DNA of 64,000 nucleotides, taken from assembly GCF_963676685.1 (NCBI RefSeq), contig NC_092346.1, forward strand, positions 48,484,001-48,548,000, given 5' to 3'. The notes below the pieces were generated by a model. That model had not been told where the DNA came from and did no database searches. It was given only the letters and a program-made list of their open reading frames with translations. A program made the position numbers and the translations under genes. Source of the DNA: Mytilus edulis. Taxonomy: Eukaryota. Below are positions 2,896-51,058 of this stretch, piece after piece. How positions within the stretch are numbered: position 1 is the stretch's first letter; each line of letters begins with the position of its first letter.

Positions 2896-2948
2896 TTAGT
2901 ACACTTTTTCTTTGACCGCTGGTTCGTATCCATCCTCTTCATCATATC
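2896..2948 (-). CDS. Gene A exon 20 (acidic C-terminal tail, stop)
   Basis: GYDEEDGYEPAVKEKVY*, followed 1 nt later by a GTAAGA donor. Confidence 0.82.
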
Positions 2949-5900
2949 CTAATTGTTAAAAAAAATGTCAATTATAGCAATAACTGATTACGTACAATTT
3001 TTTGTTTCTTATGTTTATGCAATATACAAATTTTGCAATGCATGCGTAAAGATTATAAGTTTTATAAAGAAGTTTCAATAAGAATTTTTCATAACTTTAC
3101 AGTGCATGCTGTTGAAATCTAGTTAGGGACAACAGCAAATGCATGTAATCAGGCTCCTTAAAAAATATAAACAGTCAATAACACAAGAAAAGCCCGTTAA
3201 ACATATTTCCATTCAAATATACATGAAACCGAGTTATATATTCCAAGAAAAACAACCTTACAGTTCACGTGGGGTGTATGTTGACCAAACCTTCTATAAA
3301 TTCTGTAAATGGTATATGTATAAACATAAAAAATATGTGTTTTACCGTCGGTATATAGATCAAACAGGCGCCTTTTCTTTAGTTTTCCAAAGCATACGCT
3401 TCTACTATGATAATGTGAATAGCAATGACTCCAATACCTCCAGAATCGTTTATCACCACATGCCAGTTGGTATGCTACAAATAAATTACATGATACATAT
3501 TGTTAACCACAACTTAATATTAACGATTTTCGCAGTAACATAATAACGCGAATATAAATTGTAGGTAATATGGTAAACATTAATCTTCCCTAATGTAACA
3601 CATCTAGAATTTTTATTTTAAAATTTTTACAATGCTTGTTGTTTAGTTTATTTTTGACAAGTGCAGCTATATCTAACCAGGTATAAAAAAAATAACCCAT
3701 GCATGCGTCTATTTTTGTAGTAAAGTATATATCTTTTCTATTTGAGATTAAGTTTATATGGATACGACTTTCATAAGTATCTTATATTCAGTGTTAATTT
3801 GAGATATTAAAAAGACTGTCAGTTCGAGGAAAACACGAGATGGGATGTATATGATTAATATATAATTTACTTTTTACAATGAAGTATTATTTTAAAACAG
3901 TTTGAAAAGGCACGTAATATAAATGATGAATTGCATATTTCGTATCTAGTAATAATTCGCCAATTTGCATATTTCGTTTCTAGTAATAATTCGCTGATTT
4001 GCATTAAAAGTTAGACAGGTTTAATATGATGAGCGACATTTATTTTCTAAATGAGAAATTATATTGGAAGTAAAGACACGACCCTGTGACGTGCAGAGAA
4101 TGTAAATACTTTTTATTTGAAATATTAACATTGTTATAGCATTTGTAGGCATGTTGAAGTAACAATTATTGTGGACGTTAATATTTTTTGGTCAATTCAA
4201 TTGTTTTGATCAGTTGTTCTTACCTTTGCCACCATATGAAAATCTGTGCTGTCTGATTTTAAATCCATGATATTTCTTGTAGTAATCTATGTAACGTACA
4301 TGCCTGTGACTGTGTCTATGACGATAAGCATAACTATGTTTCTTGAGATTATACTCGTGTTTCTTATGGAGATGTCTCACGTTCAACTCATGCTTCTTGT
4401 TTTGATACTGACGTGTATTCAAATGCCTCTTATGTTGATGTTCAACAGTTGACAAATGATGTTTTGTGTGTTTGTGGAGTCGTTTAACATGATAATCTAC
4501 GAGTTGTTTAAATCTATTTATATGACTTCTAGCCTCGTTTGCAATTCTGCTGACGTGTTTGTTAGCCTGGTGTTGAATGTGGCGAACATGTTTATTTGAT
4601 ACATGAGATATTCTCGCTACATGACTCTTGGCTACTCTATGGATTCTTCTTGTATGGTGATGAGCAATTTGTCTGTGCCGGTACAGGTGCTTTCTCAGAG
4701 CATGATGGTCTGTAAAACGATAAATAAAATATATGTACTGATAGTAATGATTATTGTGGGTAAATTTACGATATTTCAATTATGTTTTAAGATATCAGAA
4801 TTAATAGAATAACGAAAAATAATAACCCGATTAAAAATTGATTTCGTGATGAAATAATCGTCAATGTCAAATACCTTAATTGCTTGTGATGATAGTTATC
4901 AATGCATATTGATATGTAAAATGGTAGTAAAATCGTAGATTTCCGCACTCTTAAATTTATTTTAAAAAGTAAAAAAAATTTAGAAATTCAAAATATAAAA
5001 AAAGGATAAGAATCATATGTAATGTGTCTTCGATAAAGTCTTTAAGCAATGCAGAATTAAACGTATTTAGTTTCAATTTACGTTTGAACATTTATCTCCA
5101 ATGAATCTATAAAAGAGAAGATAATTTTTCATAAAATGTATATTTTGAACTGAAATTATGAATAAAAAAAGTATAAAAAATCAAACAAAAATAATAGTAT
5201 AAGCAACAAATACGAATATATCTCCTGTCATATAAAGTTTAAAGTACATACGTCTAACGTATCTATAGAAGAGATGATGTCTTCCTAGTCGTCTAAAACA
5301 GGTCCCTACACTATGATAACGATGATAACATTGTCCCCAGTGTCTATAGAATCGGCTTCTGCTACATTTCAGTTTGTATGCTGCAATTAAAAAATGTCTT
5401 TTTTTCAAAACTGTCGAATGCTTGAAATGTCCTGAAGAGGATTGTCAAATAAGACAGCTCAATGAAAAAAAGTTAAAATATATGAAAAAACTACTAAAAA
5501 GTATACTACAAACATTCATTACGAGTTGTGTAAATAAATCACAATTTAAAAAGTATCGTGTATGAAATGTAAAATATGAATTATAAGTTATTAATATTCT
5601 TATGTTTTCATACTATTTGCAAATGGCTTTGTGTTCTTTGTTTACAAATAAACATACATTCTGGACAAATTGCGGATCACTGCTATGAATATAAACGACC
5701 AAAATGGTTACTGTGTTAATATTTCCGCCATTGACGTTATCCCTTTGAAAATATTTAAGTATTTTTAAATTCGCTCACCAATTCCGTTGTATGAAAATCT
5801 ATGATGTCTTATTCTGAATCCATGATGGCTATAGTAGTAACTACGGTCATATATAGGCCCGGAACTGTAACCAATTTCGGAATAATCTTCTACATAATGA

Positions 5901-8900
5901 TAAACATAATAGTTAAACTCAATGATGGAAAGGTTTTAAAGCATGTTTTCAATGTTTCGATGTAATCATTCACAATTAAATATTTAATGTATACCAGTTT
6001 TTTCATATTAACCAGCATCCAGTTTTAATTTCACGGAGAACATTTTGAACAAAATTTATCCTCAGAATAAATGTTTCGTTACGGTTTTTTTTTTCTTGGT
6101 TCATGTCGAAAAATACAGTAAGGTTAAAAAAACGTGGACAACTAACTGTTAAATATAATAGGACCAACATTTCATCGAATTTGTAAATGAAACAAGAATA
6201 ACAAAGAAAATACATGCTTAAGGTGGAACCTAACACTACAGGCATAAAATCTGTAAAATCAGATAAACGTTTTAATTACGTTGTGTTGTAAAGGGTATAT
6301 TAAGCTTCTCAATGATCAAAATTAGGCCGTGTTCACACCAAACTCCATGTACAGTAAACTTGTTTACAATTAGTGTAATGCACTGGACATTGGTTTCACA
6401 TTAAATTTGTTCACATCTATACACCTTGTTTAATTACCTGTGCATAAGATTTGTTCACACTTGTAAACTCTATGTCATTTAAATGTTCATTACGTAGAAT
6501 CGAATGAAAAGTTTTCGAACAACTTTTCTAGCAGTAAGGGAACGACCATTTGACTCTGAATAGGGGGAATGGAAATATTCCGATCCCCAATTGGATAAAG
6601 AAAACAATTGTGGTTCTACAGATGATAAAAAATATTGTGAATCAAGAGTTTCCCCATACATGATAGAGTTAAATGTAACAGTTTGAAGAAAAAAAATTTG
6701 ATTACCAGCATCGAAAAAAAAACCCGGAATAAAACGTTTGCACGGAAATAATTCTGACTCAGATAAATAAACAAAATACCCCCCCCCCCCTCTTTTTTTT
6801 AAAGTTATGTGGTTGCTTCTTTATGAAAGCCATTTTGATGATTTGCAGTAGTTTAAAGATACTAAAGATGTCTCGATTCAACATTAGAAAACGTAGGCTG
6901 GAACAGCGTGCTTACAGACGAAGAGGGAGGATTGATATATTAGGGATCACTATATTTCTATCTTTTCTGTTTGTTCAAATGGTACTCTTCTCCAAGAAGT
7001 ATTTGGCAAAAGGGTGGGGGGTAATTTTTTTTTTAACTTTAACTAAGTGTAATTTCAAGGATCCGAGATACTACACATACAATACATTTACCTCACACTT
7101 TTTAAGTAATCCATTTATGAGTGAACCGCTGTTTGAGTAAAGACCAGTGGCAAATATTTCTGTGTAAGTCAAATTTATTCGGAAAGACCTTAATTTTCAA
7201 ATGAATTATGTGTTCGGCAATGATGCTGCTTTGAGTCTTGATAAGGGCTTTATAAAGCTACGTTAAGTTTTATTTCTAAACAAAACAATTAAATATATCA
7301 AGTTTAGACAAATATTTATGTAAGTAACTTTATAATAATTGCTATAAATATCCATTGTATTTAAAAATCGTTTCTTCTTTAAATATGCACGATGAAACTA
7401 ATGTTTTGAATGCCTATTTTTATGTACACTTAATCTACACAAGGCCTACATCGAGTATCGATTGCATGTAGACAAAACATGAATTACACTACATGTAAAC
7501 ATTGAGTTTGATCAATGGGAACTTAATTTTGTTTAGTTTACGTGTGAGTTACACTTACACAACACCGAGTTTAGGTCAATGGGAACACGGCCTTAGTGTA
7601 ATTTTTCTGATAAAATAGTAGGTTCAAATTTTATGAAATTTTTATATTTTTGTCATAGGGTGAAAGTGAATACATTGTAAAAATTTTATGAAAATTCAAC
7701 GAGCCAAATTAATCTTAGTGAAGGTGTTTGGTACCACCTTAAGGCCGTGCGCTGAAGTAAAGTCATTTTGTCTCTTGCGGAGAGTTGTCTCATTGACAAT
7801 TATACCACAGTTTTTTTATATATATATTTAAACTGTCATTTAATAGTATACCTCCGCCGTATCTATAGAATAGATGTTGTCGATGTAGCCGTCCAAAGCA
7901 GCTTCCTACACTGTGGTATCGGTGATAACATTGACCCCATAGTCTGTAAAATCGGCTTCTTCCACATTTCAGTTTATATCCTGAAGTTTTAGAGATTTTC
8001 ATTTCCAGATGTTTATACTAAAATACTACTGAATTTCTCAAACGAGTAAGTTATATGAATTAAGATGAAATATGAAGATCATTTTCAATTTTTTACTATT
8101 ATTTCTAGCATTGCATTTAAATGGAAATTGTATAGGAATGTACGATTTACCCTCTAATATACTTTACACATAAAAAAAAGAATTTCCTAATATTTTAAGA
8201 TTCGCTTACCAATTCCGCCATACGTGAATTGATTATTTCTAATGGTAAATCCATGATGGCTCTTGTAATAAGCAAAGTCATATGTAATTCCGCTGCTATA
8301 ACCAGCTCCGTACGCACTGTGAGTTACACTTGAGTAACCTGCTAATTATATAAAACCAGAAAATTCAAAATTGATATTAAAAAGAGCTGACAAAAAAAAT
8401 CACATGTTACTAATCGTTTGATAAACATATTGATTCTGAAAAGAGTGACGAAAGACACCAAAGGGACAGTTAAACTCATAAATCGAAAATAAACTGACAA
8501 CGCCATCGCTAAAAATGAAAAAGACAAATAGACAAACAATAGTACACATGACACAACATAGAACAATTTAAGAATAATCAACACGAACCCCACCAAAAAC
8601 TAGGAGTGATCTCAGGTGATCCGGAAGGGTAAGCAGATCCTGCGCCACATGTGGCACCCGTCGTGTTGCTTATGTGATAAAAAATCTGGTAAAAAGTCTA
8701 ATTCGGTAGGTCAAATTCATGAAAGGGAAGGGGATTGTAGTTACGACGTAAGGAACATATCCGATATCATTTGTGAAACGGTTATTCCATAACGGTCAAC
8801 CAACTCGTGATGAGGTCCCTAAAATTAACGATGGGACGATTTCAACTTCACCATTTGGAACTCTTGGTTTAATAGCTTTCTCTAACTTTCATATAAAATA

Positions 8901-11900
8901 ATAAAACAAAATACAAATAAATACTTTGTGCATGCATTAAATTTCTGTCTTTTTACCACTTTTAAAACAAATTATCTATTTAGCAATCACGACTAAAAAA
9001 ATATTTTTCCCTCGAATTTAAAAAAAACATCAGTACCTTTATTCTTATTTAAACAGATATCACTCAAATCACTATTTTGAAACCAATGATGTAAAAATAT
9101 TTGGCAGCAAAATGAAATTAATATACTCTAAAGAATAGCCTAATGTTCACCTAAGGGCATTTATGTTTTAAACCAAAACAAAATACTTCAGTTTTAAACT
9201 TTAATTTGTATGTGGTATACATGATATATTTAATATGATTACCATTGTAATATGAAAACAGATGTTTTCTTCTTAGGTATCCAAAACATCTACCAACACT
9301 ATGGTATCGACCATAACATCTGTTCCAATAACTGTAGAAACGTCTCTTACTGCAACTCAGTTTGTAATCTATGTGAAATAAAGACACGAAAAGTAAGAAC
9401 ATACCAATGGGCAACAAAAATTTTAAGCACAACTAATATAGAAGAAAAATCTAAATTACAATTTACAAAAACGCCGCAGGGAAATATGTTTCTATCTGCC
9501 AATCATCTAAGCCAGTTGGAATGAGAATGTTTTAAATGCCTGGCAATCGCCTGTCTTTATGATGAGTTCTAGCCATACATTATTGGAGAATGGACAAATT
9601 TTCAATCATTTTTAGAATCTTTTTAAGAGAAAATCAAGCTTTCCATGGACGAAATCACGAAGACATTGCTATCAATGGCCGTATAATTGTGACATGTACC
9701 TACTACTACATATATAGATTGAACATTTAAAAATTACTCAACTTTTCACAAACTTCTTTATTTCGGCGAAAAGTGATAGATGTATAAAAAAACTTCGAAC
9801 ACTTTTTTCTCAATCTTTTCAATAAAATAAAATACACATTTATATTCATATATAAATGAGTTATAAACTGTATATATATATATACATGTATATATTATAT
9901 CTATACTATTAAACGAGAAGACCTCATTTTGGGTGTCGCTTCTCTTCCTTCCACAATAAATCAATCATCATGCCTCTGTGTCCTATAGGTAACATGCATA
10001 GTCGCATTTGTCATCCATTCTTATGATTATTCAGATTGAGTTATTTTGGGAGAAAAACGACAAAAAAGGAGTCCGGATATGATTCCGTCATCAGACTGAC
10101 TTTTAGTCATAGATAAGACTTCCGGTTTGAAACATGCACAAACACAACCAATCGTATGATAGATAACAAAAAATCAAAAATAAATAAGCCTATCAAATCG
10201 TTCTCCATGTCATGGTGTTTAGATCGCAAGAACCACAACTATTATACCTCCTTATAAAGGACAATTATTTTTCGCGTTTATCTACATGTAAACTACGATT
10301 ATACTACTTTAATATAGAGACTCTCTGTATTCTGTCTACTGTTTTTCCTTCAATTGTTTACTATTTAAGGGGTCATACCAGTTGCATATATATTAAAATA
10401 AGTAAAACATGTGACACATTTAAAAAAAACAATCGTATGATAGATAACAAAAATGAAAAATAAATAAGCCATTCAGAGCGTTCTCCATATCATGGTGTTT
10501 AGATAGCAAAAATAACAACTATTATACCTCCTTAGAGAGGACAATTATTTTTTGCGTTTCATTTCATGGTGTAAAGATCGCAAGAACCACAACTATTATA
10601 CCTCCTTAAAGAGGACAACTATTGTTCGCGTTTATCTACATGTAAACTACGATTATACTACTTTAATATATAGAGACTCTCTGTATTCTGTCAGGGACTT
10701 TCTATGTTAGTATAGAAAGTCCCTGATTCTGTCTACTGTTTTCTTTGAAATGTTTACTATTTAAGGGGTCATACCACTTACATATATATTAAAATAAGTG
10801 AAACATGCTTAACTTCATCTTAAACTACCTCGACCAAAAACTTTAACCTGAAGCCGGACTGACGGACGACCGACCGAACGAACGCACGGATGCACAGACT
10901 AGATGGGGCATAACAATTTATTGTTGAAAGTGAAAATAGTGATTTGGCAAAAATGAAAGTAAGCCGTAGAGATTAGAGGAGGCAGGGCCTTTTTCGGGCG
11001 TCGGGATCGGGTGTTTTGAAACTCGAGATTTGGGGATTGATCCTTACGGGATCCGGGAATATATTTTTCGATTTCGGGATTTCGGAATATGAATTTCTTT
11101 AAATTCTGCATCTCGGGATTTCGGGATCAGGACCCCTCCGACCACCCCTCAAATTAGCCTTAGTCGGTCTTAGTCATTTATACAAGATTCATATCCTACC
11201 ATTGGCATGTTAGTAAGACTCAAAAGAAAAAAAGCACTGATGGATTGTCCTTGAAGCATATTTTATTAGACTTATAATGGACTATATATAAGCAATTACA
11301 TTTATTTGATGTTTGAAATATAAGCAGTTACATTTATTTGATGTTTGAAACAGTGCAAATTTTTAATTTGATTTGACTTTTACCAAAAAAAGCATTGTAG
11401 CAAAAGAGACGAATAATTGTGGTCTGAGGCCAGAAACACGAAAATAATTGAATTTAACAGAAAGGAAACAAATATCGGACTTTGGAAAAAGGGAGAGGGC
11501 TTTTGATACCTTTTATGAAATTCTTCATACATAATATCTTTTTAAAAAATAATTCTACAATAGTTCACAAGCTGTATGTGCCCGCGATTTCGCGGGTGTG
11601 TTCTAGTATTTATTTATAATGTAACATTATTATTAACTTTTTGTTTTTATTTTATTATTTTTAAGTGATGAAGCGAATGGACACAACTTATCGTCAAAAT
11701 CAGTTCCAAATATATAATTTCATACGGTTATACAGTTTATCTTGTTTGTTGCTCTGTGTGTAAGAAATAGTTAATTCTTGCTTGTTTTTCATATGTATAG
11801 ATATATAAATGACTTACATTTTCCTCCGTATCTGAATCTCCCGTGGGAAATCTTAAATCTTCGGAAACGTGTGTACCCGGCAAGGTGCATGTGACCATGA

Positions 11901-14900
11901 TATGAATGAGGTGATCCAATCAGATGTCTTTTCCTCAATACTGACACACAGGTGCTTGCATGATGGAACTTATTGTAGCAGGAAGTCATATAACGAATGA
12001 ACTTTGATCGTCGGCACCCAAATTTGTAATCTAAAAAAAAGTTTAGTTTATTCTAGAATAAGGGGATTTAATATGATTTTAAATGAGCCACCCATTCAAA
12101 CAGAGACTATAGGAATATACTGTGAATATCTATATGTTACCGTACGACCTTCTACAATTATCCAAAAACATACCGTTTGGTAATTAAAAATAGAGAAACA
12201 GCAATTCTGTGCATGCTCAAATATGTGTATCATTGAAAAGAGAACTGGTTTGAATACAAATAAGTTTTGAAGACAAATCGGCATAATTGGGATTAAATTT
12301 TGTACACAATTTGTTTATATTGACAAACAGCTGCTCTGTGGGCAATGCATTTTTATTTTAAATATTGGAACCGATTTAATGTAATATGAATGGATGCATT
12401 GTATTATTTAAAAATGAACGAATTTAGTGTTGAACTTTGGTTAACTACTAGAAATATATGTACAAGACATACAAAGAGATAAAGCATTGTCGAATTTCTT
12501 TTTCTTGTTAGCTCATTCGATTATAATTAGTCAATTTTAAACAAAAATGGCACTTACATGATCTTCCGTAAACAATGCCTCTCTTTACAAAAGTTACACC
12601 TAAGCCAAATCCATGACCATATTTATGGTAAACGTGTCGTCTACCAATCAAACCTTGTTTAATCAGACCAGGGAAACAATCGCCTATATCTCCATAATCT
12701 TCATAACAGGAATTTAGTGCACCGTACAGTTTTGTTGAACTGCAAAGACGTCCATAGTCTGACATAAAAAAAAACTTATTATTATAAATACATGCATTTA
12801 CACATTCAATGCAGCTCAGATCTAAAAAGAAAATGATAAAGAAAAAAACCGATTCAACCTGGAAAATATACAATCATTATAACCATTACTTTTAGAAAGT
12901 TGTCTTTCTTGTTCATAATTATTACTTTTCATTCAGTATTTGACACTGAAACATATTAGTTCTACAGTAATTTTGGGAACATTTTGAATAAAAATATGTT
13001 ACTTGCACCTGAAATGAACAGGTTTTTTTTACTGCCTGTGGATTTTGTAAGATTTAACTAGAAATGTAAATACGAAATTGCCTCATTAGATTTCTAAGTA
13101 ATATAATCCCGAAAAAAAAATAGTTCTGCAACAAAAGTCTAGTGCAGTGTATAGTTGACTTACAGAATCCATTATATCTGATTCCACGGCCGATAAGTTC
13201 AACGCCAAGTCTGTGGAAACGATTGAATATGCGTCCTACATGAAATCTGTAGGCATGTCCTGAAAGTCAAAGACAATAGCGAAATATTATAAGATCTACC
13301 TTAACTGTAGGAAATTGTGACATCAAAATATAGTGTGACCTTTGATATTATGATTTGGTAATGAAAAGAGACACGAAGCAAACTTAAATGTGAAAGACAC
13401 AAGTCGACAGAAATAAGCATAATATATTTGCAGATTCTATTAAATTTTATATATGTATTATTTGTTTTATCTTCAGTATTGCCAAATAAATTTGAGTTTG
13501 CCTTTCATAAATATCTGATTTAAATGGAGTTATGTGCTTTGTTTGCTGAATTAATATCAATTTAACACAGCAAAAGTCAAAAGTTACAAATTACTGATTC
13601 AATTGAGTCAAAAAATGACTGATAAAAACATATTTGGTACATTTGATCTTACCTTTGCCACCATGTGAAAATCTGTGATGAATGAGGCTGTGACCATGAC
13701 CATAACGATAACCATGTTTCTTAAGATAATATTCGTGTTTCTTATGGAGATGTCTCACGTTTAATTCATGCTTGTTGTTCTGATACTGGCGTTCATTCAA
13801 ATGCTTCTTATGTTGATGTTCAACAGATGACAAATGATATTTTGTGTGTTTGTGGAGTCGTCTAAGATGGTAATCTACGAGTTGTTTAAATCTATTCATA
13901 TGACTTCTAGCCACGCTTGCAATTCTGCTTACGTGTTTGTTTGCCTGGTGTTGAATGTTGTGAATATGTTTGTTTGATACATGAGATATTCTCGCGACAT
14001 GACTCTTAGCTACATTATGGATTCTTCTTGCATGGTTGTTAGCAATTCTTCTGTGATGGTACAAGTGTTTGTTCAGAATAGCATGAGTGGCTGTAAAATG
14101 ATAGAAGCATATATTGTACTATTGCTATATATGTCATATCGAGCTCGTTTTATGTAGTATGCAATATAAAAATGTTCAAGATTTTTTTTTTTTATGCAAA
14201 GCATTCAATTGAGAAAATAAAAATAAAAACAACCATGTTAACAGCAATTTATAGTATTCAATACAAATTGATAGAACCATTAAATTTCTATAATAATCGA
14301 TAGCATCAATGATATGGCTGTAATTTTATTTGTTGCGAAGTACATTGTGAAATGGAACAAATGAATAAAAAAAAGGTGAAGAATAAATTAAAAAAATAAA
14401 ATAGTATTTTATAAACTTTTCTCGTTAACACCATCAACAGTTCCTTTCTCAATTTCATTTTGTAAGGAAGTGAAATAGATACACTGTCATATAAATTTAG
14501 AAAAATGTACCTCCAACGTATCTGTAGAAGAGATGAAGACTTCTTAGTCGATCAAAACAGATCCCCACACTATGATAACGATGATAACATTGACCCCAAT
14601 GTCTATAGAATCGGCTTCTGCTACATTTCAGTCTGTATGCTGTAATTAAAATCTATCTTGTTTCTAGGGTGTTGAATTATAAAAAAGCAAGATTGAGTCT
14701 TAATTAACTAAAAGAACTGCATACGATGAATCCTCGGTTATTAATCATGATAGAAATATTGGATATAAAAATATTCATAAATGGGAGCAATTAAAAAAAA
14801 AGCAATGGCAAGTATTATGATAAAAATTAATATATGAAATGTTAGCAACTTCTATTATGATGTTATCCATATTCATATTTTAGCCACTGTCTTTATTATC

Positions 14901-17900
14901 TTTATTTGCAAATACACAAATGAGAAGCAGTTAATTGCTATAACTTTATACAATCATATTGGGGTTTTCAATTTAACTTAATGTATTTTACGAGTCGGGC
15001 ATCAATATGTTTCCTTTATATGGACATTTATGATGTCTTATTCTAAATGCATAATGGTTACTGGAATTACTATAGTTAAAGGTAGACTCAATACTCCGTG
15101 TACATTACTGTCATTGGGTATAATCTTCTTATCAAATAATATATGCTTTCTCAGACGAGTCTTTATGATTTAATCCACAGTACTGAAGTATGTTGTTTTG
15201 TTCGATCATATTAACATGAACATTACCATTTAAAATTGAGAATGGAAATGGGGAATGTGTCAAAGAGACAACAACCCGACCAAATAAAAAAAACAACAGC
15301 AGAGGGTCACCAACCGGTCTTCAATGTAGCGAGAAATTCCCGCACCCGGAGGCGTCCTTCAGCTGGCCCCTAAACAAATATATACTAGTCCAGTGATAAT
15401 GAACGCCATACTTATTTCCAAATGTACACAAGAAACTAAAATTAAAATAATACAAGACTAACAAAGGCCAGAGGCTCCTGACTTGGGACAGGCGCAAAAA
15501 TGCGGCGGGGTTAAACATGTTTGTTTTACTATTCTTTCAAAATCATTGCATTAAAATTGTATAGGAACGTAAAATGTTAAATGTCAGCTGTTCATTGTTA
15601 TGCATTTATGCATTAAACCACCAGTGTGTTTACCATTTTGTCCCTTATTTTACCTTACTTCAATATAGATCTACTAATGTTTCTAGATTTACTTACCAAT
15701 TCCACCATATGTGAATCTATTATGGTGTATACTAAATCCGTGATGACTTTTGTAATAACCATAGTCATATACAATTCCACCATGTCCACTCCTGTAACCA
15801 GCTCCGTACCCACCACTTGAGTAACCTGCTATTTATATTAAAATGGAAAATTAAAAACAGATAGTGAAAAAGATGGGGAGAATCATTCAACATTTAAATA
15901 TTCACTTGATAAGTAAACTGATTTAGACAGCCACAAAAAGTAATCGAAACAACAAAACGAAATGTCAATGCATATTAATTTGAAAACAATGTTTTTTGCC
16001 ACAAATAAGATTAATTCACGCCTTTACAATGTGAATTTTCTACCAATTTTAAAATAAATGTACTAAAATTCACTACTGAAAAGTCATTGATGTATACATG
16101 ATTAGGAACCTAAAATTCTATGGACCACTTACTAGTAATAAAAACAAAAACAGTTCCTTGCATTTATAACTTTGAATTTGTAAGTGTTACATGTGCCTGT
16201 CCCAAGTCAAGAGCCTGTAATTTAGTGATCGTCGTTTGTTTATGTGTTACATATTTGTTTTTCTTTATTGTTTTGTACATAAATAAGGCCGTTAGTTTTT
16301 TCGTTTGAATTGTTTGACATTGTCATTTCTGGGCCTTTTATAGCTGACTATGCGGTATGGGCTTTGTTCATATTTAAAGGCCGTCCGGTGACCTGTAGTT
16401 GTTAATTTCTTTGTCATTTTGGTCTCATGTGGAGAGTTGTCTCATTGGCAATCATACCACATCTTCTTTTTTTTAAATGTACATGTAATTACCATTATAA
16501 TATGAAAACAGATGCTTCCTTCTAAGGTATCCAAAACATCTACCAACACTGTGGTATCGACCATAACATCTGTTCCAATAACTGTAGAAACGTCTCTTAC
16601 TGCAACTCAGTTTGTAATCTATATGAAATAAAGACACAAGAGGCTAGAAGATATCTATAGAACAAAAGAAATATTTAACAGAATAAAAAAAGTGTTTTGA
16701 AAGACTACCGATCGTCCACCCCTTATGATAAGTTATAACCTCATACTGCTTAGAGAATAGACAATTTGTCAATCAATTTTACAAAGTCATCAAGAACTCT
16801 TTCAAGATTTTAAGAGCAAAAAAAAAGTTCCCTATTGCTGAAAACACGGAGATATCCTATTCAATATATGTATGATTGAAGCATATATACATAACTACAA
16901 AATAACGTTGAGCATTTATTTTGTACTCAACTGTTCACCCGTTTATAGTGTTTCGGTACTTTTCTTATTTTTTGTTTTGTATGTGGTCAATTGTTTATTT
17001 TCGTTTGTTTTTGTGTAAAATATACATAACTTACATTTTCCTCCGTATCTGAATCTTCCATGGGAAATCTTAAATCTTCGGAAACGTGTGTACCCGGAAA
17101 GGTGCATGTGACCATGATATGAATGAGGTGATCGAATTAGATGTCGTTTTCTCAAAACTGACACACAGGTGCTTGCATGATGGAACTTATTGTAGCAAGA
17201 AGTCATATAACGGATGAACTTTGACCGACGGCACCCATATTTGTAATCTGAAAAATAATTTTATCAAAAATAATCAGATGTGTAAGATTGGCAATGAGGA
17301 AACAATCAGTCTGATCCTAAAAAATGAGCCTGTTAAAAACGATGGGCCACCATACTGCATTAAATGATCATAAACCATCATACCGTTCGGTGAATAAAGA
17401 AAACAGGTTCGTCAATGTGTTAATGCTTGAAACGGTTCAACGTACGCAAAATGTATACTTAAGATAGCTAAAACTATTTTCAAGTGTTTCAAATTTGCAG
17501 CTGAGAGATTACCCAGTCAAACTGAATTTACGTCAAATAACGAAAAACATGTATAAAATCTACATTTTTTACATTCTAATCCATATAACATATTGTCATT
17601 TTTATATGGTTGGAGACAATCTCATCAGTTTTAAAGATTGAAACAGTTGTAATTAAATGCGATAGGGTAAATTGCATTTCCCTTGTTCCGCAATACTTAT
17701 TGAATAATTACTTATCATTTCTAATCACTCATATAACGTGGGGACACTAATTTTTAATTTAAATCAATGTATCTAAATGTTGGTAAACTAATAAAATATA
17801 TGTTCAAGACGTAACGTCAGACGATGTGTTCTCGTTTACTCATTCGAGGAATATTTTTCAATTACAAAACAATAAATATGTACTTACATGATCTTCCATA

Positions 17901-20900
17901 AACAATGCCTCTTCTCACAAAGGTGACACCTAAACCGAATCCATGACCATATTTATGGTAAACGTGGCGTCTTCCAATCAACCCTTGTTTAATCAGACCA
18001 GGGAAACAATCCCCTATGTCACCATAATCTTCATAACAGGAATTTAGTGCACCGTACAGTTTTGTTGCACTGCAAAGACGTCCATAGTCTGCAACAAAAG
18101 ACAAATGAATATAACATGAAGGGTAGCTTAGACTTAATCTTAATCTATAAAGACAATAAAAAGAGACACAAATTTACGGTCATACTATGATAACAATCAC
18201 TCAACGGAAGAACTGTTTTTTGTTCATTAATTTCATTTTTATTTTTCAATCAATATTTGACACTATAAAATGTAGAATCGAAATGGGAAATGTGTCAAAG
18301 AGACAACGATCAGATGAAAGTGTAAAAAACTGCCCAAGGCAAAACAGTGAATAAAAATTCCCGCAGTCAGAGGCGGGCTTAACTGGACCCTAAACACAAA
18401 TGTGTACTAGGTCAATGAAAAAGACGTTACTCAAAACACCGAAACATATTAATGACAAAATTTAAAAAAAAACAAAAAAACCCAGACATACATGACTAAC
18501 AAAGGCGAAAGGCTCCAGACTTGGAACACGCATAATTGTTCCTTGGAATTTTTGCAGCAAAATGTATGATCTTTTACCTTTTTATTTATTAGTCCTTTTT
18601 CGGTATTTCTTACCTTTAATTATAAAACTTAAAGTTTCATACAAAATGTACCACACCTAAAATTCATTGACATTATAACAGTCCCGTAAAAGTTTCTTTC
18701 TTAAAGTCGAACGTAGTGTACAATATTACTTACAGAATCCGTTATATCTGATTCCACGTCCGATAAGTTTAACACCAAGATTGTGGAAACGTTTGAATAT
18801 ACGCCCTACTTTAAATTTGTAGGCATGTCCTAAAAGTACAAGACAATAGCAAAAATATAATAAAATATATGTTCAATTCAGGGCAATAAAATGCACATAA
18901 GAACGAGCTTAAGTGCTTCCAAAGCAGGACGAAAACCCAAGCTTAGCTAACCTTTTTTCTGTAATATGCACAAATAAAAAAAATAAACATATTGCTTTGA
19001 CAACGACTGTGAAGTCGACATCAATGTGAACTGTGTCGTTAATAACTGTTTGGACACGGAGTCGGAATTCCAATTATACCAATAAAGTTTGTTCATGATA
19101 TAATCAGTATCCAAAGAGATGATATTTGTTTAGATCACGGCGTTGGCGTTACTTTACAGCTGTATTTGAACATTATATATAATGCATTACAGTTATCAAT
19201 TTGGTAATGTTTATGATTTTTTCATCACGTATTCCCAAGTTTTGATAAACCTTAGAACTGAAAGTAGAATCTGCCAAATCCGTGTATTTTTAGCATTGTT
19301 ATTAAAGGGAATTGTTTTTTCTAAAATGGTAATTGTTCCCTCTTTTTATGATGAACTTAAAATAAAAATCGGTATGAATCAGACTTTAATGAGACATACA
19401 CCAGACGACAAAATAGAAATGGAAATAATCACTTTTATTTAGATTCAAATACCTATTTCTTTTTTTGTCAACTGATTACATTTGTTCATATCAATTTTCA
19501 AAGATGTCAGAGCTTTCATGTATTAATTCTAATCGGACTCTCAAAGATCACAAGAAATGCCTGTCATTGATAAAAAGAACATGTTTTCATTTCGTTAAAT
19601 CTTTGATATAAACACACTCCCGAACAACACAAGCATGCCTTTAAGATGAAGATAAGCAATAAAAATGCAGTCTTTTTGGTTATTGTGTGGGATTTGCTCT
19701 GTTTGTACTGATTTTGTGTTATGAATGAATACCTCATACTCTTTGTTTTTCTATTATGAAAGTAAAATATGAAAGTTAGAACAGCACAAAAACACTGATG
19801 ATGGCCAACGATTAACTCATGCGCATCGATACTGTCTTTTTTTCGAACCAGATATTCGTTAATAATAAAACAAAAACACGATTGGTAATAAAGTTATTAC
19901 CTGATAAAGTAAGGGAAGTTGACAAAAATAAGTACACAAAGCCAAATAACACGAGTACAGAACTAAGGGCATCACTTAGTAAAATGACGAATTTCCTTTA
20001 CATACTAGGTTAAATACATACAATCAGTACTTGGTGTAGAATGAGTATATAGCATATCATCTTCTGAGATTATTTCAATTATTCTCTCACTTAATATAAT
20101 AATTTGGAGATGCAGTATGACTGAGACAATGAGACATTTATCCATCACATATTCAAAATGTTCACATGACGTGCATGTATTCAATCAACTCAATATCAGA
20201 CGGACACAAAAAAAATATAACGCTCAAATAGTCATACCAGTAATAAGTTTGTGCCCAGCATAACCGGCATGGTGACCATGAGAAACATAGCTTGAGCTTG
20301 AGTATGAACTTGATTTAACTACTTTAGGTTTGTAGCTATAGTCTTCTTTATTACCGGAATAATAGTCTTTACTGCCATACCCATTCGTAGCTGAAATTTG
20401 ATAAAAAAAAAAAAAAAAAAAAAACAATTATGAAACAGAAATAAAAATTTGTAAATATAGCAACTTTCAGATTTCCCCCCGATCTTTTAATGTCCATCAC
20501 AGATACATGTAATGTGCATATTATTTAAAATATTAGATAAAACTATAAAACTGTAAAAAAGACTTGCCACTGGAAAGTATTTTACATCTTATTCCAGTTT
20601 TCTAGTAACCTTTTTTTTATATATAAAAAATGCTTTTTTGTCACACAATGAATTACATTTAATTTGATTGAAATACGAAAATAATATGTGCTATCGTTGA
20701 CGATGATATCCCTCAACAGTTCATTTCACGCACATTTAAACTGAACTTATTCATAAAATTGTTTCTCAACTAAAAATTACTGTATATCAATTAAAAAAAA
20801 TATCTATTTCTATATCTTAATGCCGATGTTATTTATTAGTCCAAAATAGTTTCTATTGGGTTTTCTGCTAGTTTATGTGTTTCCCTCGATTTTGGTGTGT

Positions 20901-21460
20901 GACTTTTTTTTGTTTTGGCTTTATCGCTTTATGATTTTTGAACAACAGTCAAATAATATTTCCTTAATTACAAGATCTTATACAAAAAACGAAAAAAAAA
21001 AAAAATATGTATAACTCTTAAGGTACTGAATGGCTCTATAGAAAAAAAGATTGATATTTTTTTTTCTATTATATAAAAAGCTTTAACCTCAATTTTGGTT
21101 AGATGGAGACATTCCAGAAAAAAAATTCTGTACATTGTACACACGAGTCGCACATGAGATGACTTTAAATTAATTTATATATAGTTAAGTTTCTGGGACA
21201 TTTCAAAACTCAAAAGTCTGCAATCTATCGAGTTCTGAAAGTTGTTTAATCTTTTGTTTTTACTTTTTTTGTAAATATTTTTAGTTTTAGTACTTGGAAC
21301 ACACAAATAAAAAAAACTAACTGTCTGAAGGCAGTTAAGGTTTGAATTTAAGCTGACCAATAGAGAAAAAAAATCAAACTAATTATTAAATTAAAACTTA
21401 TCGAGAATACTTACATGCAGCAATCGCTGCAATGAGTAGGACTAGTATCCCACAAGCCAT
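2896..21460 (-). CDS. mfp-12: Gene A: secreted His/Tyr/Cys-rich modular protein, mussel foot protein-12-like, with internally duplicated body (20 coding exons, ~1110 aa)
   Basis: GT-AG exons read by eye: 21415-21460, 20238-20390, 18734-18829, 17888-18088, 17035-17247, 16493-16618, 15697-15825, 14511-14639, 13653-14090, 13164-13259, 12558-12758, 11818-12030, 9243-9368, 8210-8338, 7852-7980, 5779-5889, 5252-5380, 4224-4709, 3346-3474, 2896-2948. All introns phase 1; sum 3333 nt, open frame from signal peptide MACGILVLLIAAIAASTNG to TAA. The symbol rests on recalled architecture (His-rich helix plus Cys/His modules), not on a search. Confidence 0.8.
3346..3474 (-). CDS. Gene A exon 19 (Cys module)
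   Basis: AYQLACGDKRFWRYWSHCYSHYHSRSVCFGKLKKRRLFDLYTD. Confidence 0.88.
4224..4709 (-). CDS. Gene A exon 18 (His-rich 11-residue-repeat helix, copy 2)
   Basis: HHHALRKHLYRHRQIAHHHTRRIHRVAKSH...YHGFKIRQHRFSYGGK; 486 nt; inside track ORF 4210..4779. Confidence 0.9.
5252..5380 (-). CDS. Gene A exon 17 (Cys/His module)
   Basis: AYKLKCSRSRFYRHWGQCYHRYHSVGTCFRRLGRHHLFYRYVR. Confidence 0.88.
5779..5889 (-). CDS. Gene A exon 16 (Gly/Tyr/His module)
   Basis: EDYSEIGYSSGPIYDRSYYYSHHGFRIRHHRFSYNGI. Confidence 0.85.
6325..7592. mobile_element. PIF/Harbinger-like MITE nested in the TTAA element
   Basis: TTA-GGCCGTGTTC ... GAACACGGCC-TTA: 10-bp perfect TIR, 3-bp TTA TSD. Confidence 0.72.
6535..6823. mobile_element. 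Possible third nested MITE
   Basis: Imperfect TIRs TAAGGGAACGACCATTTGACT / AGTTATGTGGTTGCTTCTTTA with subterminal G and C runs. Confidence 0.4.
7852..7980 (-). CDS. Gene A exon 15 (Cys/His module)
   Basis: GYKLKCGRSRFYRLWGQCYHRYHSVGSCFGRLHRQHLFYRYGG. Confidence 0.88.
8210..8338 (-). CDS. Gene A exon 14 (Gly/Tyr/His module)
   Basis: GYSSVTHSAYGAGYSSGITYDFAYYKSHHGFTIRNNQFTYGGI. Confidence 0.85.
8437..8878 (-). mobile_element. Family P2 3' fragment
   Basis: Reverse complement matches 27746-27968 and continues into the 3' UTR shared with 22351-22628. Confidence 0.75.
9243..9368 (-). CDS. Gene A exon 13 (duplicate of exon 6)
   Basis: YYKLSCSKRRFYSYWNRCYGRYHSVGRCFGYLRRKHLFSYYN. Confidence 0.88.
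10150..10805. repeat. Internal tandem duplication inside the Helitron
   Basis: CAATCGTATGATAGATAACAAAAA at ~10149 and ~10430, each followed by ~250 bp of similar sequence; a sub-repeat is triplicated. Confidence 0.75.
10692..10725. mobile_element. 34-bp TIR-only mini-insertion with 7-bp target duplication
   Basis: ATTCTGT-CAGGGACTTTCTAT-gttagt-ATAGAAAGTCCCTG-ATTCTGT; empty site in the paralogous segment near 10329-10340. Confidence 0.75.
11818..12030 (-). CDS. Gene A exon 12 (duplicate of exon 5)
   Basis: YYKFGCRRSKFIRYMTSCYNKFHHASTC...; 213 nt. Confidence 0.88.
12558..12758 (-). CDS. Gene A exon 11 (duplicate of exon 4)
   Basis: YYGRLCSSTKLYGALNSCYEDYGDIGDCFPG...; 201 nt. Confidence 0.88.
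13164..13259 (-). CDS. Gene A exon 10 (duplicate of exon 3)
   Basis: GHAYRFHVGRIFNRFHRLGVELIGRGIRYNGF. Confidence 0.85.
13653..14090 (-). CDS. Gene A exon 9 (His-rich 11-residue-repeat helix, copy 1)
   Basis: ATHAILNKHLYHHRRIANNHARRIHNVAKSHVARISHVSNKH...HHRFSHGGK; 438 nt; overlaps track ORF 13591..14064. Confidence 0.9.
14511..14639 (-). CDS. Gene A exon 8 (Cys/His module)
   Basis: AYRLKCSRSRFYRHWGQCYHRYHSVGICFDRLRSLHLFYRYVG. Confidence 0.88.
15010..15128 (-). pseudogene. Decayed pseudo-exon homologous to exons 5779-5889 and 34583-34714
   Basis: Reads EDYTQ*Q*CTRSIESTFNYSNSSNHYAFRIRHHKCPYKGN: two in-frame stops and no GT donor at the homologous position. Confidence 0.65.
15231..15523 (-). 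mobile_element. Family P1 3' fragment
   Basis: AAAATTGAGAATGGAAATGGGG...GGCGGGGTTAAACATG, similar to 62756-63043. Confidence 0.78.
15697..15825 (-). CDS. Gene A exon 7 (Gly/Tyr/His module)
   Basis: GYSSGGYGAGYRSGHGGIVYDYGYYKSHHGFSIHHNRFTYGGI. Confidence 0.85.
16190..16474 (+). repeat. Interspersed repeat 3' end (SINE/LINE-like), unclassified
   Basis: GGCCTTTTATAGCTGACTATGCGGTATGGGCTTTG...GTTGTCTCATTGGCAATCATACCACATCTTCTTTTT recurs at ~45490-45662 and inverted at ~31975-32120. Confidence 0.65.
16493..16618 (-). CDS. Gene A exon 6 (Cys/His module)
   Basis: YYKLSCSKRRFYSYWNRCYGRYHSVGRCFGYLRRKHLFSYYN. Confidence 0.88.
17035..17247 (-). CDS. Gene A exon 5 (Cys module + His tail)
   Basis: YYKYGCRRSKFIRYMTSCYNKFHHASTCVSVL...HGRFRYGGK; 213 nt. 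Confidence 0.88.
17888..18088 (-). CDS. Gene A exon 4 (Cys module + Gly/His tail)
   Basis: YYGRLCSATKLYGALNSCYEDYGDIGDCFPGLIKQGLIG...GIVYGRS; 201 nt. Confidence 0.88.
18272..18535 (-). mobile_element. Family P1 3' fragment, degraded
   Basis: Diverged match to 15231-15500. Confidence 0.6.
18734..18829 (-). CDS. Gene A exon 3
   Basis: GHAYKFKVGRIFKRFHNLGVKLIGRGIRYNGF; 96 nt as in three paralogous exons. Confidence 0.85.
20238..20390 (-). CDS. Gene A exon 2 (Ser/Tyr/Gly/Lys-rich N-terminus)
   Basis: STNGYGSKDYYSGNKEDYSYKPKVVKSSSYSSSSYVSHGHHAGYAGHKLIT; CAG acceptor, GTATGA donor. Confidence 0.85.
21415..21460 (-). CDS. Gene A exon 1 (signal peptide)
   Basis: MACGILVLLIAAIAA, then T|GTAAGT donor. 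Confidence 0.85.
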
Positions 21461-27616: not shown

Positions 27617-28260
27617 TTTCCATTTCTAAGTAGCAACATTCCAGGAGCACCTGCATACGGGTATATATCCCCCAATTGATACGATATTCCCGTGCGTGCA
27701 TTTCCTATTATGATTTTCTTAATAGAGGGTTGCTGCTCACAAGGAAGCTATTAATCCAAGAGTTCCAAATGGTGAAGTTGAAATCATCCCTTCGTAGATT
27801 TTACGGACACCATTACGAGTGGGTTGACCATTATGGAATAACCGTTTCACAAATGATATCGGATATGTTCCTTACGTCGTAACTACAATCCCCTCCCCTT
27901 TCATGAATTTGACCTACCAAATAAGACTATTTACCTGATTTGTTATCATATAAGCAACACGACGGGTGCTTACGGGTGGTATGTTTTAATTGTCTTAACT
28001 TAAATCTTCTATTGTTGTCCTCAAAAGTGACATCACCAAATGCGACATATCACTGCAGTTGTTATTTTCTGAGCAAGGTAAAAGGTGTCATCTATGAGAA
28101 TAACCTCATTTCTTTTTATAGGTTTGTGTTGCTCAGTCTTTTCAATATTGTGCAGACCTTTGTTTATCTTTTCGACATTTATTTTCTAATCATGGGTTGT
28201 CAATTTTGATTCTTCTTGAGTTTGGAAATTCCTTTGATTTATTTCTTCTCTCCTTCTCTT
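27617..28260 (+). mobile_element. Penelope-like retroelement remnant (family P2): frameshifted RT thumb plus decayed 3' UTR
   Basis: FPFLSSNIPGAPAYG/..QLIRYSRACISYYDFLNRGLLLTRKLLIQEF motif typical of PLE RT C-termini; 3' boundary approximate. Confidence 0.7.
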
Positions 28261-30351: not shown

Positions 30352-33300
30352 CTACAAAAGAAAGAAAATATATAAGTCAAAATAAGTCTAAAAAGATTTT
30401 TGGTACATACACTCTAATTCAGTTATATTGCAAAGACACAACTTCATAATATCTAACTTCGGAGGCATACAATTCTTCTAGCACCGATTACGATGTTAAT
30501 TCTGAACACACCATTCGTACTATTCAAAACTGTTCTTGTGTATGTTTTATGATAAAAAATTATTCTAATTCGCATCAAAGCTACAAAACAAAAATCAGAT
30601 GACTAATTCTTATAACTTGCTACCCAATCCATTTAAGGAATGATTGTAATATTTTTTCTGTCTATGAAGAAATAACATAAAAAATTTAGTGCACACTGAA
30701 TAACGCACGTAGCGGGTTATTTAACAGTGTGCACCACATTTTTTCTGTTATTTTGAATAGACAGAAAAAATATTACAGTCATTTTTTATAATTTAATTCT
30801 AAATTCCATTTTAAACCGTAGAAAACCATGAAAAAACGTTGATGACGTCACGGTCACATGACTAAATTATGTCTATGGGCTCATAACAAAATAACGTCAG
30901 CCAATTAGAAGACGCGTTACATCCAAAATTAAATTATTATAAAGGAATATGAGTAAACTAACTAATAACATTCATGTAACATCACAATAGTAAATATAAA
31001 AGAAACTAGGTTTGCTACTTTGCGTGTGCAGGATGGCGTTGCATTGTATCACGTTTTCAAAACAAATACTTCATTATTGAGGCATATTGGTCCAAATGTG
31101 TTCATCGTTAATAAGCAAATATACCTTTTCCTATTTTCTTAAAGATACATTATAAATATATCCATTTTTCTATTAACGTTTGGTTTAGAACTTATCTTAT
31201 GAGTATATCGTTTCTGATTGATTGTTCAAAATAAAGAGGGATGTATTCCTTGAGGTTAACCCCTCCCCCTCCAAAAATAATAATAATAAAAATCGGCTTG
31301 ATACGACATATCATTTATCATTTGTTTAACATTTTGTTCATTATGACCGGAATAAAAATATTACATACGTTATATAATTCTTCCGTCTTGTTCAAAAGGA
31401 TTTCAAAAAGTGTTTTAGAGGAAAGAAATATTAAAATATTTGAGTTTCAAATTGTCTTTATAACCGGAGGAAAGTATGTTATCTCTTTTGATATCATTCA
31501 CCTACCTTATATAATAATTGAAAGATTCAAAAGGGCAATGATGGATATAAATGTGGGTCTCTTGTGTTTTGTACGGTGTAAAACACATAATTGAACATAA
31601 TCATGATATTTGATATCTTACAATAGTATGCTGATTTTCCTGCTGGTACATAATCATCCTCGTCATCATATCCTAATGGGAAAACGAAACAAGTTACAAT
31701 AGTGATTACAAGTAATGTACAAATATCAACTACACATTTCTGTTTTGACAAAGCCCGCACATCATTATTAGATGCAGTCTTTGAATTTGTTTTCTTTTTG
31801 TTCTTGTATTGTAAACCAGACAAGGTGTATGTAAAAATTAAGTTTATAAAACTAATTAATAAGAAATAAGTAAATTTCACATCAACTCACAAACGATTGC
31901 ATGACGCAAATACACAGTTTACAATAATACTTATACATGCACTCAAACTTTTCATTTCTGGCTCTATTGATATATAAAAAAGAAGATGTGGTAAGGTTGC
32001 CAATGAGACAACTCTCCAAAAGAGACAAAAATGACACAGAAACTAACAGCTATAGGTCAACGTATGGTCTTCAATAATGAGCAAAGCCCATACCGCATAA
32101 TCAGCTATAAAAGGCAACGAAATATGTTTGCTGGCGCTAAACCACTCCGACCCAAATGGGACATACACGAAACAGCACAATAAAAGAAGAAGCTATCAAA
32201 ATTAGTTGATAAAGAAAAGAAATTTAATTTTTAAAGCGATGCAACGACAAAAAAAACCCCCAAAACACAAGGTATGAATTTGAGAGTACTTGAAGCTGTT
32301 TAAAGCTATATAAAAGCCTAATTAATAACAAATGAACAAATCTATATATAATGCTAAATTGTTTAGGGTCCGGAAACAGCAGGTATATATTGCAGACATA
32401 TCAGCACTTGACCACTTCTTTATACATATTATAGTCAATTACACAAGAGAACTATATGTTGGTGCTTGTTTAATAGACTATATAAAGTGATTCTGTGAAT
32501 AGCATACATTGCATTAACCAAAATACGTGTATGATATGCTTATATAATGTGGTTTACCGTCGGTGTATACATCAAACAGGTGCCTTTTCCTTAGTTTTCC
32601 GAAGCAAACGCTTCTGCTATGATAATGTGAATAGCAATCACTCCAATAATTATAGAATCGTTTATCTCCACATGTCAGTTGGTATGCTTTAAAAACATAA
32701 ACAAAATATTATTATCAGTTTGAAAGTACGAAATGAGTTATTGATGAGTAACAAAGTTGATACTTATACAATATATGATTATAGGTCTAAGTATACAGTT
32801 GTTAGTTTTGTACACAGTTCTTCAATTCACTTCCTTAGTAATTATATTCGTTACATGTAATAATAATGATATTAATATATACACATGTTTCTTTTTTATT
32901 ATAGTATTGTTCTCTTCTACTCAAAATTAAGTGTACATGTGTAAGGCTTTCCATTATGTTTTTGTCTGTACGATATTGGTAATATAAAAGACAAATTAAA
33001 TGTATCTCACGTATGCGACACAGTTACACTTGATAAAACATGAACCTGTGATGCAATGAAACCGAACATACTTTTATTGAGAATATAAGTATTCATATTG
33101 TATTTGTGGGCATGCGTAAGTAAATATTTCATGAATTCTTATTAAAATATTCTGGTACATTTGATCTTACCTTTGCCACCATATGAAAATCTGTGATGAT
33201 CCAGTTTAAATCCATGATATTTCGTAAAGTAGTCATTATAACTTACTACAAGCCCATGAGCATAAGCGATTGCATGTTTCTTGAGATTATATTCGTGTTT

Positions 33301-51012: not shown

Positions 51013-51058
51013 ATGACTCGAGGAGTGTTCACTTTTTTACTGGTTGTCTGTGTGACAG
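51013..51058 (+). CDS. Gene C exon 1 (signal peptide)
   Basis: MTRGVFTFLLVVCVT, G|GTAAGT; 46 nt like A/B exon 1. Confidence 0.82.

What the first reader, a model, noticed from the sequence alone, without database searches (positions are those of the whole stretch)
5252..5380. Repeated ~40-aa C-x11-C-x4-H-x4-C-x7-H module, usually one per exon: candidate zinc-finger-like extracellular domain
Seen: consensus Y-x-L-x-C-S-x-x-R-F-Y-x-x-W-x-x-C-Y-x-x-Y-H-S-x-x-x-C-F-x-x-L-x-x-x-H-L-F in more than 20 exons across the three genes, with fixed Cys spacing. Three Cys is an odd number for a secreted disulfide domain. Inference: a Cys3His metal site, or one disulfide plus a free thiol for cross-linking or DOPA redox buffering. 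The first Cys is replaced by Val in gene C exon 5, and the last His is replaced in a few copies, giving natural variants to compare.
Basis: partly seen in the sequence, partly recalled or inferred. Interest (0 to 1): 0.7.

Follow-up and report, generated by a model that had tools for sequence, protein, structure and literature searches.

The report
Mussel glue-protein repeat domain, probably disulfide-stapled
This exon encodes part of a small repeated domain of mussel glue proteins that was already published as 'zinc-finger-like', but across more than 200 copies only two of its cysteines are constant, so it is more likely held by one disulfide bond than built around zinc.

Summary
The module is real: 27 copies lie in the window, and the exon (minus strand, 5380-5252) is spliced. 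It belongs to gene A, an uncharacterised tandem paralogue of the mussel plaque protein mefp-12. Neighbouring gene B is mefp-12 itself (three RACE primers match exactly; 88.0 kDa, pI 9.9, 9.1% His). Three things are added here. (1) The predicted domain is about 62 aa and includes a helix and beta-hairpin from the preceding exon. (2) The same domain builds mfp-10 and YGH-rich protein-1, with at least 120 matches in this genome, 110 in one 0.8-Mb cluster. (3) Of 226 distinct copies, Cys2 and Cys3 are kept in 225 and 226, while Cys1 (205), His22 (182) and His35 (126) vary; Cys1 is replaced by hydrophobic residues. A Cys2-Cys3 disulfide with a buried spare Cys1 fits better than a Cys3His zinc site. 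No coordinates or metal data were available, and no known fold matched.

The parts
5252..5380 (-). The finding: Cys-module exon of gene A (beta3-Cys1-helix1/Cys2-His22-helix2/Cys3-His35-beta4), about residues 847-889 of P0001
   Evidence: splice joints; pS 0.338 vs pN 0.051 against the matching gene B exon
5779..5889 (-). Preceding exon: linker, helix 0 and beta-hairpin, the predicted N-terminal third of the same domain
   Evidence: joints 5380/5779 and 5889/7852; models of homologous domains
4224..4709 (-). Gene A second His-rich helical (predicted coiled-coil) exon, ending in the hairpin of the last domain
2896..21460 (-). Gene A: mfp-12 paralogue, 1111 aa (P0001, XP_071159489.1), internally duplicated, 10 domains and 2 His-rich helical regions
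   Evidence: 1103 of 1111 residues matched exactly to window exons; names
13653..14090 (-). Gene A first His-rich helical exon
3346..3474 (-). Gene A module exon (His35 is Arg)
7852..7980 (-). Gene A module exon
9243..9368 (-). Gene A module exon
11818..12030 (-). Gene A module plus next hairpin exon
12558..12758 (-). Gene A His-free module plus next hairpin exon
14511..14639 (-). Gene A module exon
16493..16618 (-). Gene A module exon
17035..17247 (-). Gene A module plus next hairpin exon
17888..18088 (-). Gene A His-free module plus next hairpin exon
31620..43562 (-). Gene B = mefp-12 (P0002, XP_071159498.1, 745 aa); module exons 39239-39039 (His-free), 38385-38173, 37522-37397, 36411-36205, 35862-35734, 34154-34026, 32686-32558
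   Evidence: RACE primers match with 0 mismatches; mass, pI and His content match the paper; 741 of 745 residues matched
33171..33650 (-). Gene B His-rich coiled-coil exon, source region of the alpha-FP12 peptide
   Evidence: 29 of 30 residues identical to the residue list of Supplementary Table S3, compared by eye
51013..64000 (+). Gene C (P0033, 1374 aa, runs past the window), the likely orthologue of YGH-rich protein-1; module exons 53438-53638 (His-free), 53928-54134 (Cys1 is Val), 55078-55215, 56061-56174, 57364-57486, 58333-58446, 59661-59783, 60828-60941, 61665-61787, 62629-62742

Best explanation
The exon encodes the C-terminal two-thirds of a predicted ~62-residue alpha/beta domain that is repeated in mussel byssal-plaque proteins of the mfp-10/mfp-12/YGH-rich family, and the domain is likely stapled by one Cys2-Cys3 disulfide rather than folded around a Cys3His zinc ion. 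Shown: the exon is spliced, lies in a tandem paralogue of mefp-12, and only Cys2 and Cys3 are constant in the family. Predicted: the order helix0-beta1-beta2 | intron | beta3-Cys1-helix1-turn-helix2-beta4, with Cys2 near the end of helix 1 and Cys3 near the start of helix 2. Inferred: Cys2 and Cys3 face each other across the helix hairpin and oxidise to a disulfide; Cys1 is a mostly buried free cysteine; His22 and His35 are optional residues that may add His-metal contacts between molecules. Inferred, as the mefp-12 authors also speculate: strings of these domains flank the Zn-cured His-rich coiled coil and toughen the porous glue scaffold by unfolding under load.
For: Alignment not anchored on Cys, 469 hits covering the helix pair (38 of 507 dropped as partial), 226 distinct modules: Cys2 225, Cys3 226, Cys1 205, His22 182, His35 126. 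At 80% clustering 20 of 70 types have neither His. Fewest changes on a tree of 60 representatives built without these columns: Cys2 0, Cys3 0, Cys1 6, His22 10, His35 12 (FastTree 0, 0, 4, 8, 13). Cys1 is replaced by V 9, I 5, F 4, L 1, M 1, E 1. AlphaFold2 on a close homologue (P0059, 83% identical to the exon): blocks at residues 91-140 average pLDDT 91-96 (82 for 81-90); helix 109-123, helix 126-135, Cys1 107, Cys2 119, His 124, Cys3 129, His 137. The same elements recur in three domains of P0056. Ten helical residues span 15.3 A. mcfp-10 (AST36128.1) consists of three such domains, all without His35. His-free copies are kept at the same position in several Mytilus species.
Against: No coordinates were returned, so no S-S or S-N distance was measured; the strict lower bound for Cys1-Cys2 C-alpha is only 7.7 A. 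The finding's own copy and 19 of 27 window copies keep all five residues. His22 is still conserved in 182 of 226 and sits in the turn between Cys2 and Cys3. Free thiols persist in plaque (passages of PMC7269650), so secreted Cys need not be oxidised, and plaque holds zinc (PMC13022425). Invariance of two Cys also fits two thiolate ligands. The sample is all Mytilus or unnamed, includes computed gene models, and the tree rests on 54 columns.
Confidence: 0.6

Rival explanations
1. Cys2, His22 and Cys3 form an open Cys2His zinc site at the helix-hairpin turn, completed by water or by a His from another chain; His-free copies fall back on a disulfide.
For: His22 is in 182 of 226 modules and 23 of 27 window copies and lies in the turn between the two Cys. 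Plaque contains Zn and free thiols.
Against: 44 of 226 modules lack His22 (G 29, K 8, N 5, T 1, R 1) while the Cys pair stays, with about 10 changes on the tree. Within one protein (P0066) it is His in 2 domains and Lys in 2.
Confidence: 0.2
2. A closed structural Cys3His zinc finger.
For: Three Cys and two His are conserved in the six mefp-12 domains the authors aligned; all five are present in 19 of 27 window copies.
Against: All five are present in only 31 of 70 types. Cys1 and Cys2 flank a long helix in the model. Cys1 is replaced by hydrophobic residues. The authors left out the His-free seventh domain of gene B (inferred) and call the idea speculative.
Confidence: 0.07
3. All three Cys stay reduced and serve as a thiol reservoir for DOPA-quinone reduction or cysteinyl-DOPA cross-linking, as proposed for mfp-6.
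For: Thiol-based DOPA rescue operates in plaque; the proteins are about 12% Tyr.
Against: A reservoir would not fix two Cys at exact facing positions in 225-226 of 226 copies. Cys is under 3% of residues. mefp-12 goes to the solid scaffold, not the fluid redox phase.
Confidence: 0.07
4. Cys2-Cys3 is a disulfide and Cys1 forms disulfides between domains or chains that polymerise the scaffold.
For: Odd Cys number per domain; 3 to 14 or more domains per chain.
Against: Hydrophobic replacements suggest burial. Microplaques dissolve in dilute acid and mefp-12 runs as a gel band (the sample buffer may have been reducing).
Confidence: 0.06

Closest known systems
mefp-12 / mcfp-12 'Zn-finger-like globular domains' (Rivard et al. 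2026, PMC13022425)
   Same: Same domain. Gene B is mefp-12, and the finding's exon is 86% identical to a gene B exon. The paper reports six domains with 3 Cys and 2 His, two helices and two strands, predicted only.
   Different: The finding lies in a longer paralogue (1111 aa, two coiled-coil regions, ten domains). My models add helix 0 and further strands from the preceding exon. Family-wide data show the His residues and Cys1 are optional.
mcfp-10 (AST36128.1) and YGH-rich protein-1 (ALA16016.1)
   Same: Built from 3 and 8 copies of the same domain; gene C is the likely YGH-rich protein-1 orthologue.
   Different: mcfp-10 has no coiled coil, lacks His35 in all three domains and has a fourth Cys in one.
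Classical zinc fingers (C2H2, CCHC, CCCH; definitions recalled)
   Same: Small, tandem, Cys/His-containing, beta plus alpha.
   Different: Secreted protein; ligands not co-conserved; no closely spaced Cys knuckle; no Pfam zinc-finger family listed for 8 queries.
CHCH / twin CX9C helical hairpins (definition recalled)
   Same: C-x9-C spacing in a two-helix unit; one His-free exon scored Pfam CHCH at E 0.12.
   Different: Score 13 against a cut-off of 27.2; only one CX9C, with its two Cys on different helices; attached to a beta-sheet. Not a member.

Membership tests
mfp-12-type His-rich plaque protein (gene A) | Repeated 3-Cys/2-His globular domains homologous to those of mefp-12 | tested here: met
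   10 domains; the finding's exon is 86% identical to gene B exon 34154
mfp-12-type His-rich plaque protein (gene A) | Long His-rich helical (predicted coiled-coil) region | tested here: met
   Two homologous exons; P0001 is the top hit of the gene B helical exon, 74% identity. Coiled-coil propensity itself was not computed.
mfp-12-type His-rich plaque protein (gene A) | N-terminal signal peptide | tested here: met
   First 15 residues identical to those of gene B/mefp-12, whose signal sequence is published; no predictor was run
mfp-12-type His-rich plaque protein (gene A) | Made in the plaque gland and present in the plaque scaffold | not testable with these tools
   Spliced transcripts exist but the tissue is not on record; shown in print for mefp-12 only
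Structural zinc finger (Cys3His or Cys2His2) | Four ligands conserved together across the family | tested here: not met
   Only Cys2 and Cys3 are constant; Cys1 205, His22 182, His35 126 of 226; 6, 10 and 12 changes on the tree
Structural zinc finger (Cys3His or Cys2His2) | Ligand side chains converge on one site | tested here: inconclusive
   Secondary structure puts Cys1 and Cys2 at opposite ends of helix 1, but no coordinates were available
Structural zinc finger (Cys3His or Cys2His2) | Sequence or fold match to a described zinc-finger family | tested here: inconclusive
   No significant Pfam, PDB-sequence or fold match of any kind
Structural zinc finger (Cys3His or Cys2His2) | Binds Zn and needs it to fold | not testable with these tools
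   Not measured here, nor in the parts of PMC13022425 that I read
CHCH / twin CX9C domain | Two CX9C motifs, one on each helix | tested here: not met
   One CX9C spanning the turn; Pfam CHCH 13 bits against 27.2

The most novel reading that the evidence does not exclude
A mussel-specific fold unlike any solved structure is the shared building block of the plaque scaffold proteins, amplified to over 100 exon copies in one cluster. It hides a latent thiol: Cys1 is packed against a helix-0 tyrosine, the position that is a fourth Cys in 17 copies, all of which keep Cys1. On unfolding under load or on Tyr oxidation to DOPA-quinone, Cys1 would form a cysteinyl-DOPA or disulfide cross-link, making the glue harden when strained.
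Probability: 0.12. Interest if true: 0.75.

Novelty: new member of a known kind. Interest (0 to 1): 0.35.

Why it matters
[quoted passage not shown] The natural variants found here (His-free, Cys1-free and four-Cys copies) and the two-exon domain boundary make the zinc-versus-disulfide question directly testable, and warn that expressing the single exon would give a truncated domain. They also tie mfp-10, mfp-12 and YGH-rich protein into one gene family and cluster. The domain and the zinc idea themselves are not new.

Tried and rejected
Pfam scan of 8 exon products: nothing near a cut-off (best module hits E 0.05-0.12). PDB sequence search with the 27-row profile: 0 hits at E<=10. Foldseek against PDB: 0 matches at E<=0.001 for both models. 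VIA-align against 48,161 chains: best Z 4.3 and 3.7, none at 5 or above, no zinc finger among the 50 rows shown; this shows neither a new fold nor the absence of a zinc-finger likeness. ESM Atlas: no usable hit for the domain of P0001; only Gly/Tyr-composition leads under 0.8 for P0059. The complex-prediction tool (domain dimer with Zn) was not available, so no verdict. Independent-pair tests of co-loss among Cys1, His22 and His35 had 3-4 supported pairs and cannot reach significance. In the search of 1.84 billion representatives, 36 proteins passed E 0.001; three (P0076, P0078, P0081) are unrelated repeats and were dropped before counting. No run listed as holding the stretch is on record as RNA. 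Earlier scan findings: none. The idea that exon equals domain was rejected: in P0002 every Cys module follows a hairpin, the chain starts with a hairpin and ends with a Cys module. The idea that gene A is two genes was rejected on database gene models in two species; I did not check the internal junction in reads. DeMartini 2017 and Rivard 2025 (Adv. Funct. Mater.) are not held.

Full report
Observation. The stretch 5252-5380 is a minus-strand exon of 129 nt with phase-1 introns on both sides. The pattern C-x11-C-x4-H-x4-C occurs 22 times in the window, against a mean of 0.01 in 100 shuffles; a profile finds 27 copies in three genes. Contigs from four public runs, guessed to be RNA, join this exon to its neighbours at CT..AC ends: 4709/5252 in 4 of 4 and 5380/5779 in 3 of 4. 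Against its counterpart in gene B the exon shows pS 0.338 and pN 0.051. All five motif residues are present in 19 of 27 copies; Cys1 in 26, His22 in 23, His35 in 19, Cys2 and Cys3 in all 27.

Identity of the genes. A search with the His-rich helical exon returned 11 proteins; the 10 with a name are all Mytilus. Gene A, which holds the finding, encodes P0001 (XP_071159489.1, 1111 aa; 1103 residues matched exactly) and gene B encodes P0002 (XP_071159498.1, 745 aa; 741 matched). Gene B is mefp-12. The three RACE primers in the supplement of PMC13022425 match it with no mismatch, and one also matches the start of gene A with one mismatch. Its computed 88.0 kDa, pI 9.87 and 9.1% His equal the published 88, 9.9 and 9.1, and the alpha-FP12 peptide is 29 of 30 identical by eye. 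Gene C encodes P0033, the likely orthologue of M. coruscus YGH-rich protein-1.

What is in print. I read parts 1-4 of 9 of PMC13022425 (abstract, introduction, results, discussion, start of methods), the whole text of its supplementary PDF (figures not visible) and passages of the peer-review file. It reports six AlphaFold3-predicted globular domains in mefp-12, each with 3 Cys and 2 His, two helices and two strands, 'resembling zinc fingers', and speculates that they toughen the glue like titin Ig domains. Only the coiled-coil peptide was tested for Zn. The words 'disulfide', 'paralog' and 'mfp-10' do not occur in the supplements, and 'disulfide' and 'mfp-10' do not occur in the main text. 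Seven literature searches listed no paper that treats the domain family-wide, judged from listings and abstract starts. DeMartini 2017 and Rivard 2025 are not held, and Qin 2016 (recalled) was not looked up; any of them may already note it. Passages only were read of PMC5549309 (YGH-rich proteins highly expressed in Mytilisepta foot), PMC7269650, PMC12723037, PMC6680511 and PMC7971044.

Extent of the family. The module profile found 40 longer proteins among 1201 candidates, including mcfp-10 (AST36128.1) and YGH-rich protein-1. The search of 1.84 billion representatives gave 36 hits, three of them unrelated repeats. Every true hit with a name is Mytilus; the unnamed ones cannot be placed, and names were looked up for only part of the hits. 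The window's own genome has at least 120 matches: 110 in C3:48.28-49.04 Mb, 7 on C2 and 3 near C3:96.5-96.6 Mb. All 48 copies examined (27 in the window, 21 in ten fetched stretches) have a phase-1 acceptor exactly two bases before the first module codon.

Domain boundaries and fold. A hairpin motif precedes the Cys module in 151 of 176 distinct modules by a strict pattern; many misses are variant hairpins or incomplete models. AlphaFold2 models of two homologues (P0056, three domains, mean pLDDT 61.6 with linkers; P0059, residues 91-140 at 91-96 by blocks of ten) agree on helix 0, a beta-hairpin, a third strand ending just before Cys1, a 15-residue helix with Cys2, a turn with His22, a 10-residue helix with Cys3, His35 and a last strand. 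The conserved intron therefore falls inside the domain. The finding's own copy was not folded; P0059 is 83% identical to it. No significant fold match was found (see Tried and rejected).

Zinc or disulfide. In an alignment not anchored on cysteines, 226 distinct modules keep Cys2 in 225 and Cys3 in 226, but Cys1 in 205, His22 in 182 and His35 in 126. Of 70 types at 80% identity, 31 have all five and 20 have neither His. On a tree of 60 representatives built without these columns, Cys2 and Cys3 never change, while Cys1, His22 and His35 change at least 6, 10 and 12 times; tests for joint loss were underpowered. Cys1 is replaced by V, I, F, L or M in 20 of 21 cases, as expected of a buried residue (inference). 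Cys1 and Cys2 are separated by ten helical residues, 15.3 A in an ideal helix, though the strict lower bound for the pair is only 7.7 A. From general knowledge, structural zinc sites conserve their four ligands together, whereas an invariant facing pair in a secreted protein is typical of a disulfide. I therefore favour one Cys2-Cys3 disulfide with a buried Cys1 (0.6). An open Cys2-His22-Cys3 site stays plausible (0.2), because His22 is well conserved, thiols survive in plaque and plaque holds Zn. No distance, thiol or metal was measured.

A lead. Seventeen modules carry a fourth Cys in helix 0, at a position that is usually Tyr (102 of 226) or Phe (13). All 17 keep Cys1 and none has His35, and no Cys1-free module has Tyr, Phe or Cys there. 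This would fit a second disulfide to Cys1, and so a Tyr-Cys1 contact in ordinary copies, but the 17 fall into few lineages (6 of 60 representatives, 3 changes) and proximity is not shown.

Verdict. A real, expressed, selected domain of mussel glue proteins, already described in the neighbouring paralogue with the same zinc-finger suggestion. The gene carrying the finding is a new member of that family. The added value is the two-exon boundary, the family-wide expansion and comparative evidence against a Cys3His site. Interest 0.35.

Noticed in passing
window 2896-21460 (-): Gene A is an internal duplication of an mfp-12-like unit with two His-rich helical regions; a 1109-aa counterpart exists in M. 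galloprovincialis (P0019) and partly duplicated forms in M. californianus and M. coruscus (P0005, P0006). At 133 kDa it is a candidate for one of the three His-staining bands in the paper.
   Followed up: partly
window 56061-62742 (+): Gene C has near-identical exon pairs (56061/58333, 57364/59661, 60828/62629), a sign of recent tandem duplication.
   Followed up: no
G000:C3:48.89-49.04 Mb: Two blocks repeat the match pattern and scores of 48.45-48.55 Mb: segmental duplications or assembly duplicates.
   Followed up: no
window 8313-9243: One run (X3) shows a joint with 19 other letters between, suggesting an allele with a shorter Gly-rich exon.
   Followed up: no
window 6160-6383 and 8400-8847: Intronic stretches with very high contig depth in all four runs, likely interspersed repeats.
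   Followed up: no
window 27634-27879 (+): An open frame between genes A and B that resembles the tail of a retroelement reverse transcriptase (recalled, not tested).
   Followed up: no
P0068 and P0055 (database proteins): Divergent family members whose domains mostly lack the motif His residues; P0068 carries a long His-rich octapeptide repeat instead of a coiled coil.
   Followed up: partly
P0006 and P0079 (database proteins): Family members labelled 'HNRNPABD' and 'cation diffusion facilitator family protein 1-like', probably misannotations.
   Followed up: no
L001 (G000:C2:11216000-11225999): Five module exons matching the His-rich P0010/P0067 type; by His content (17.6% in P0010) possibly mfp-11, not tested.
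   Followed up: no
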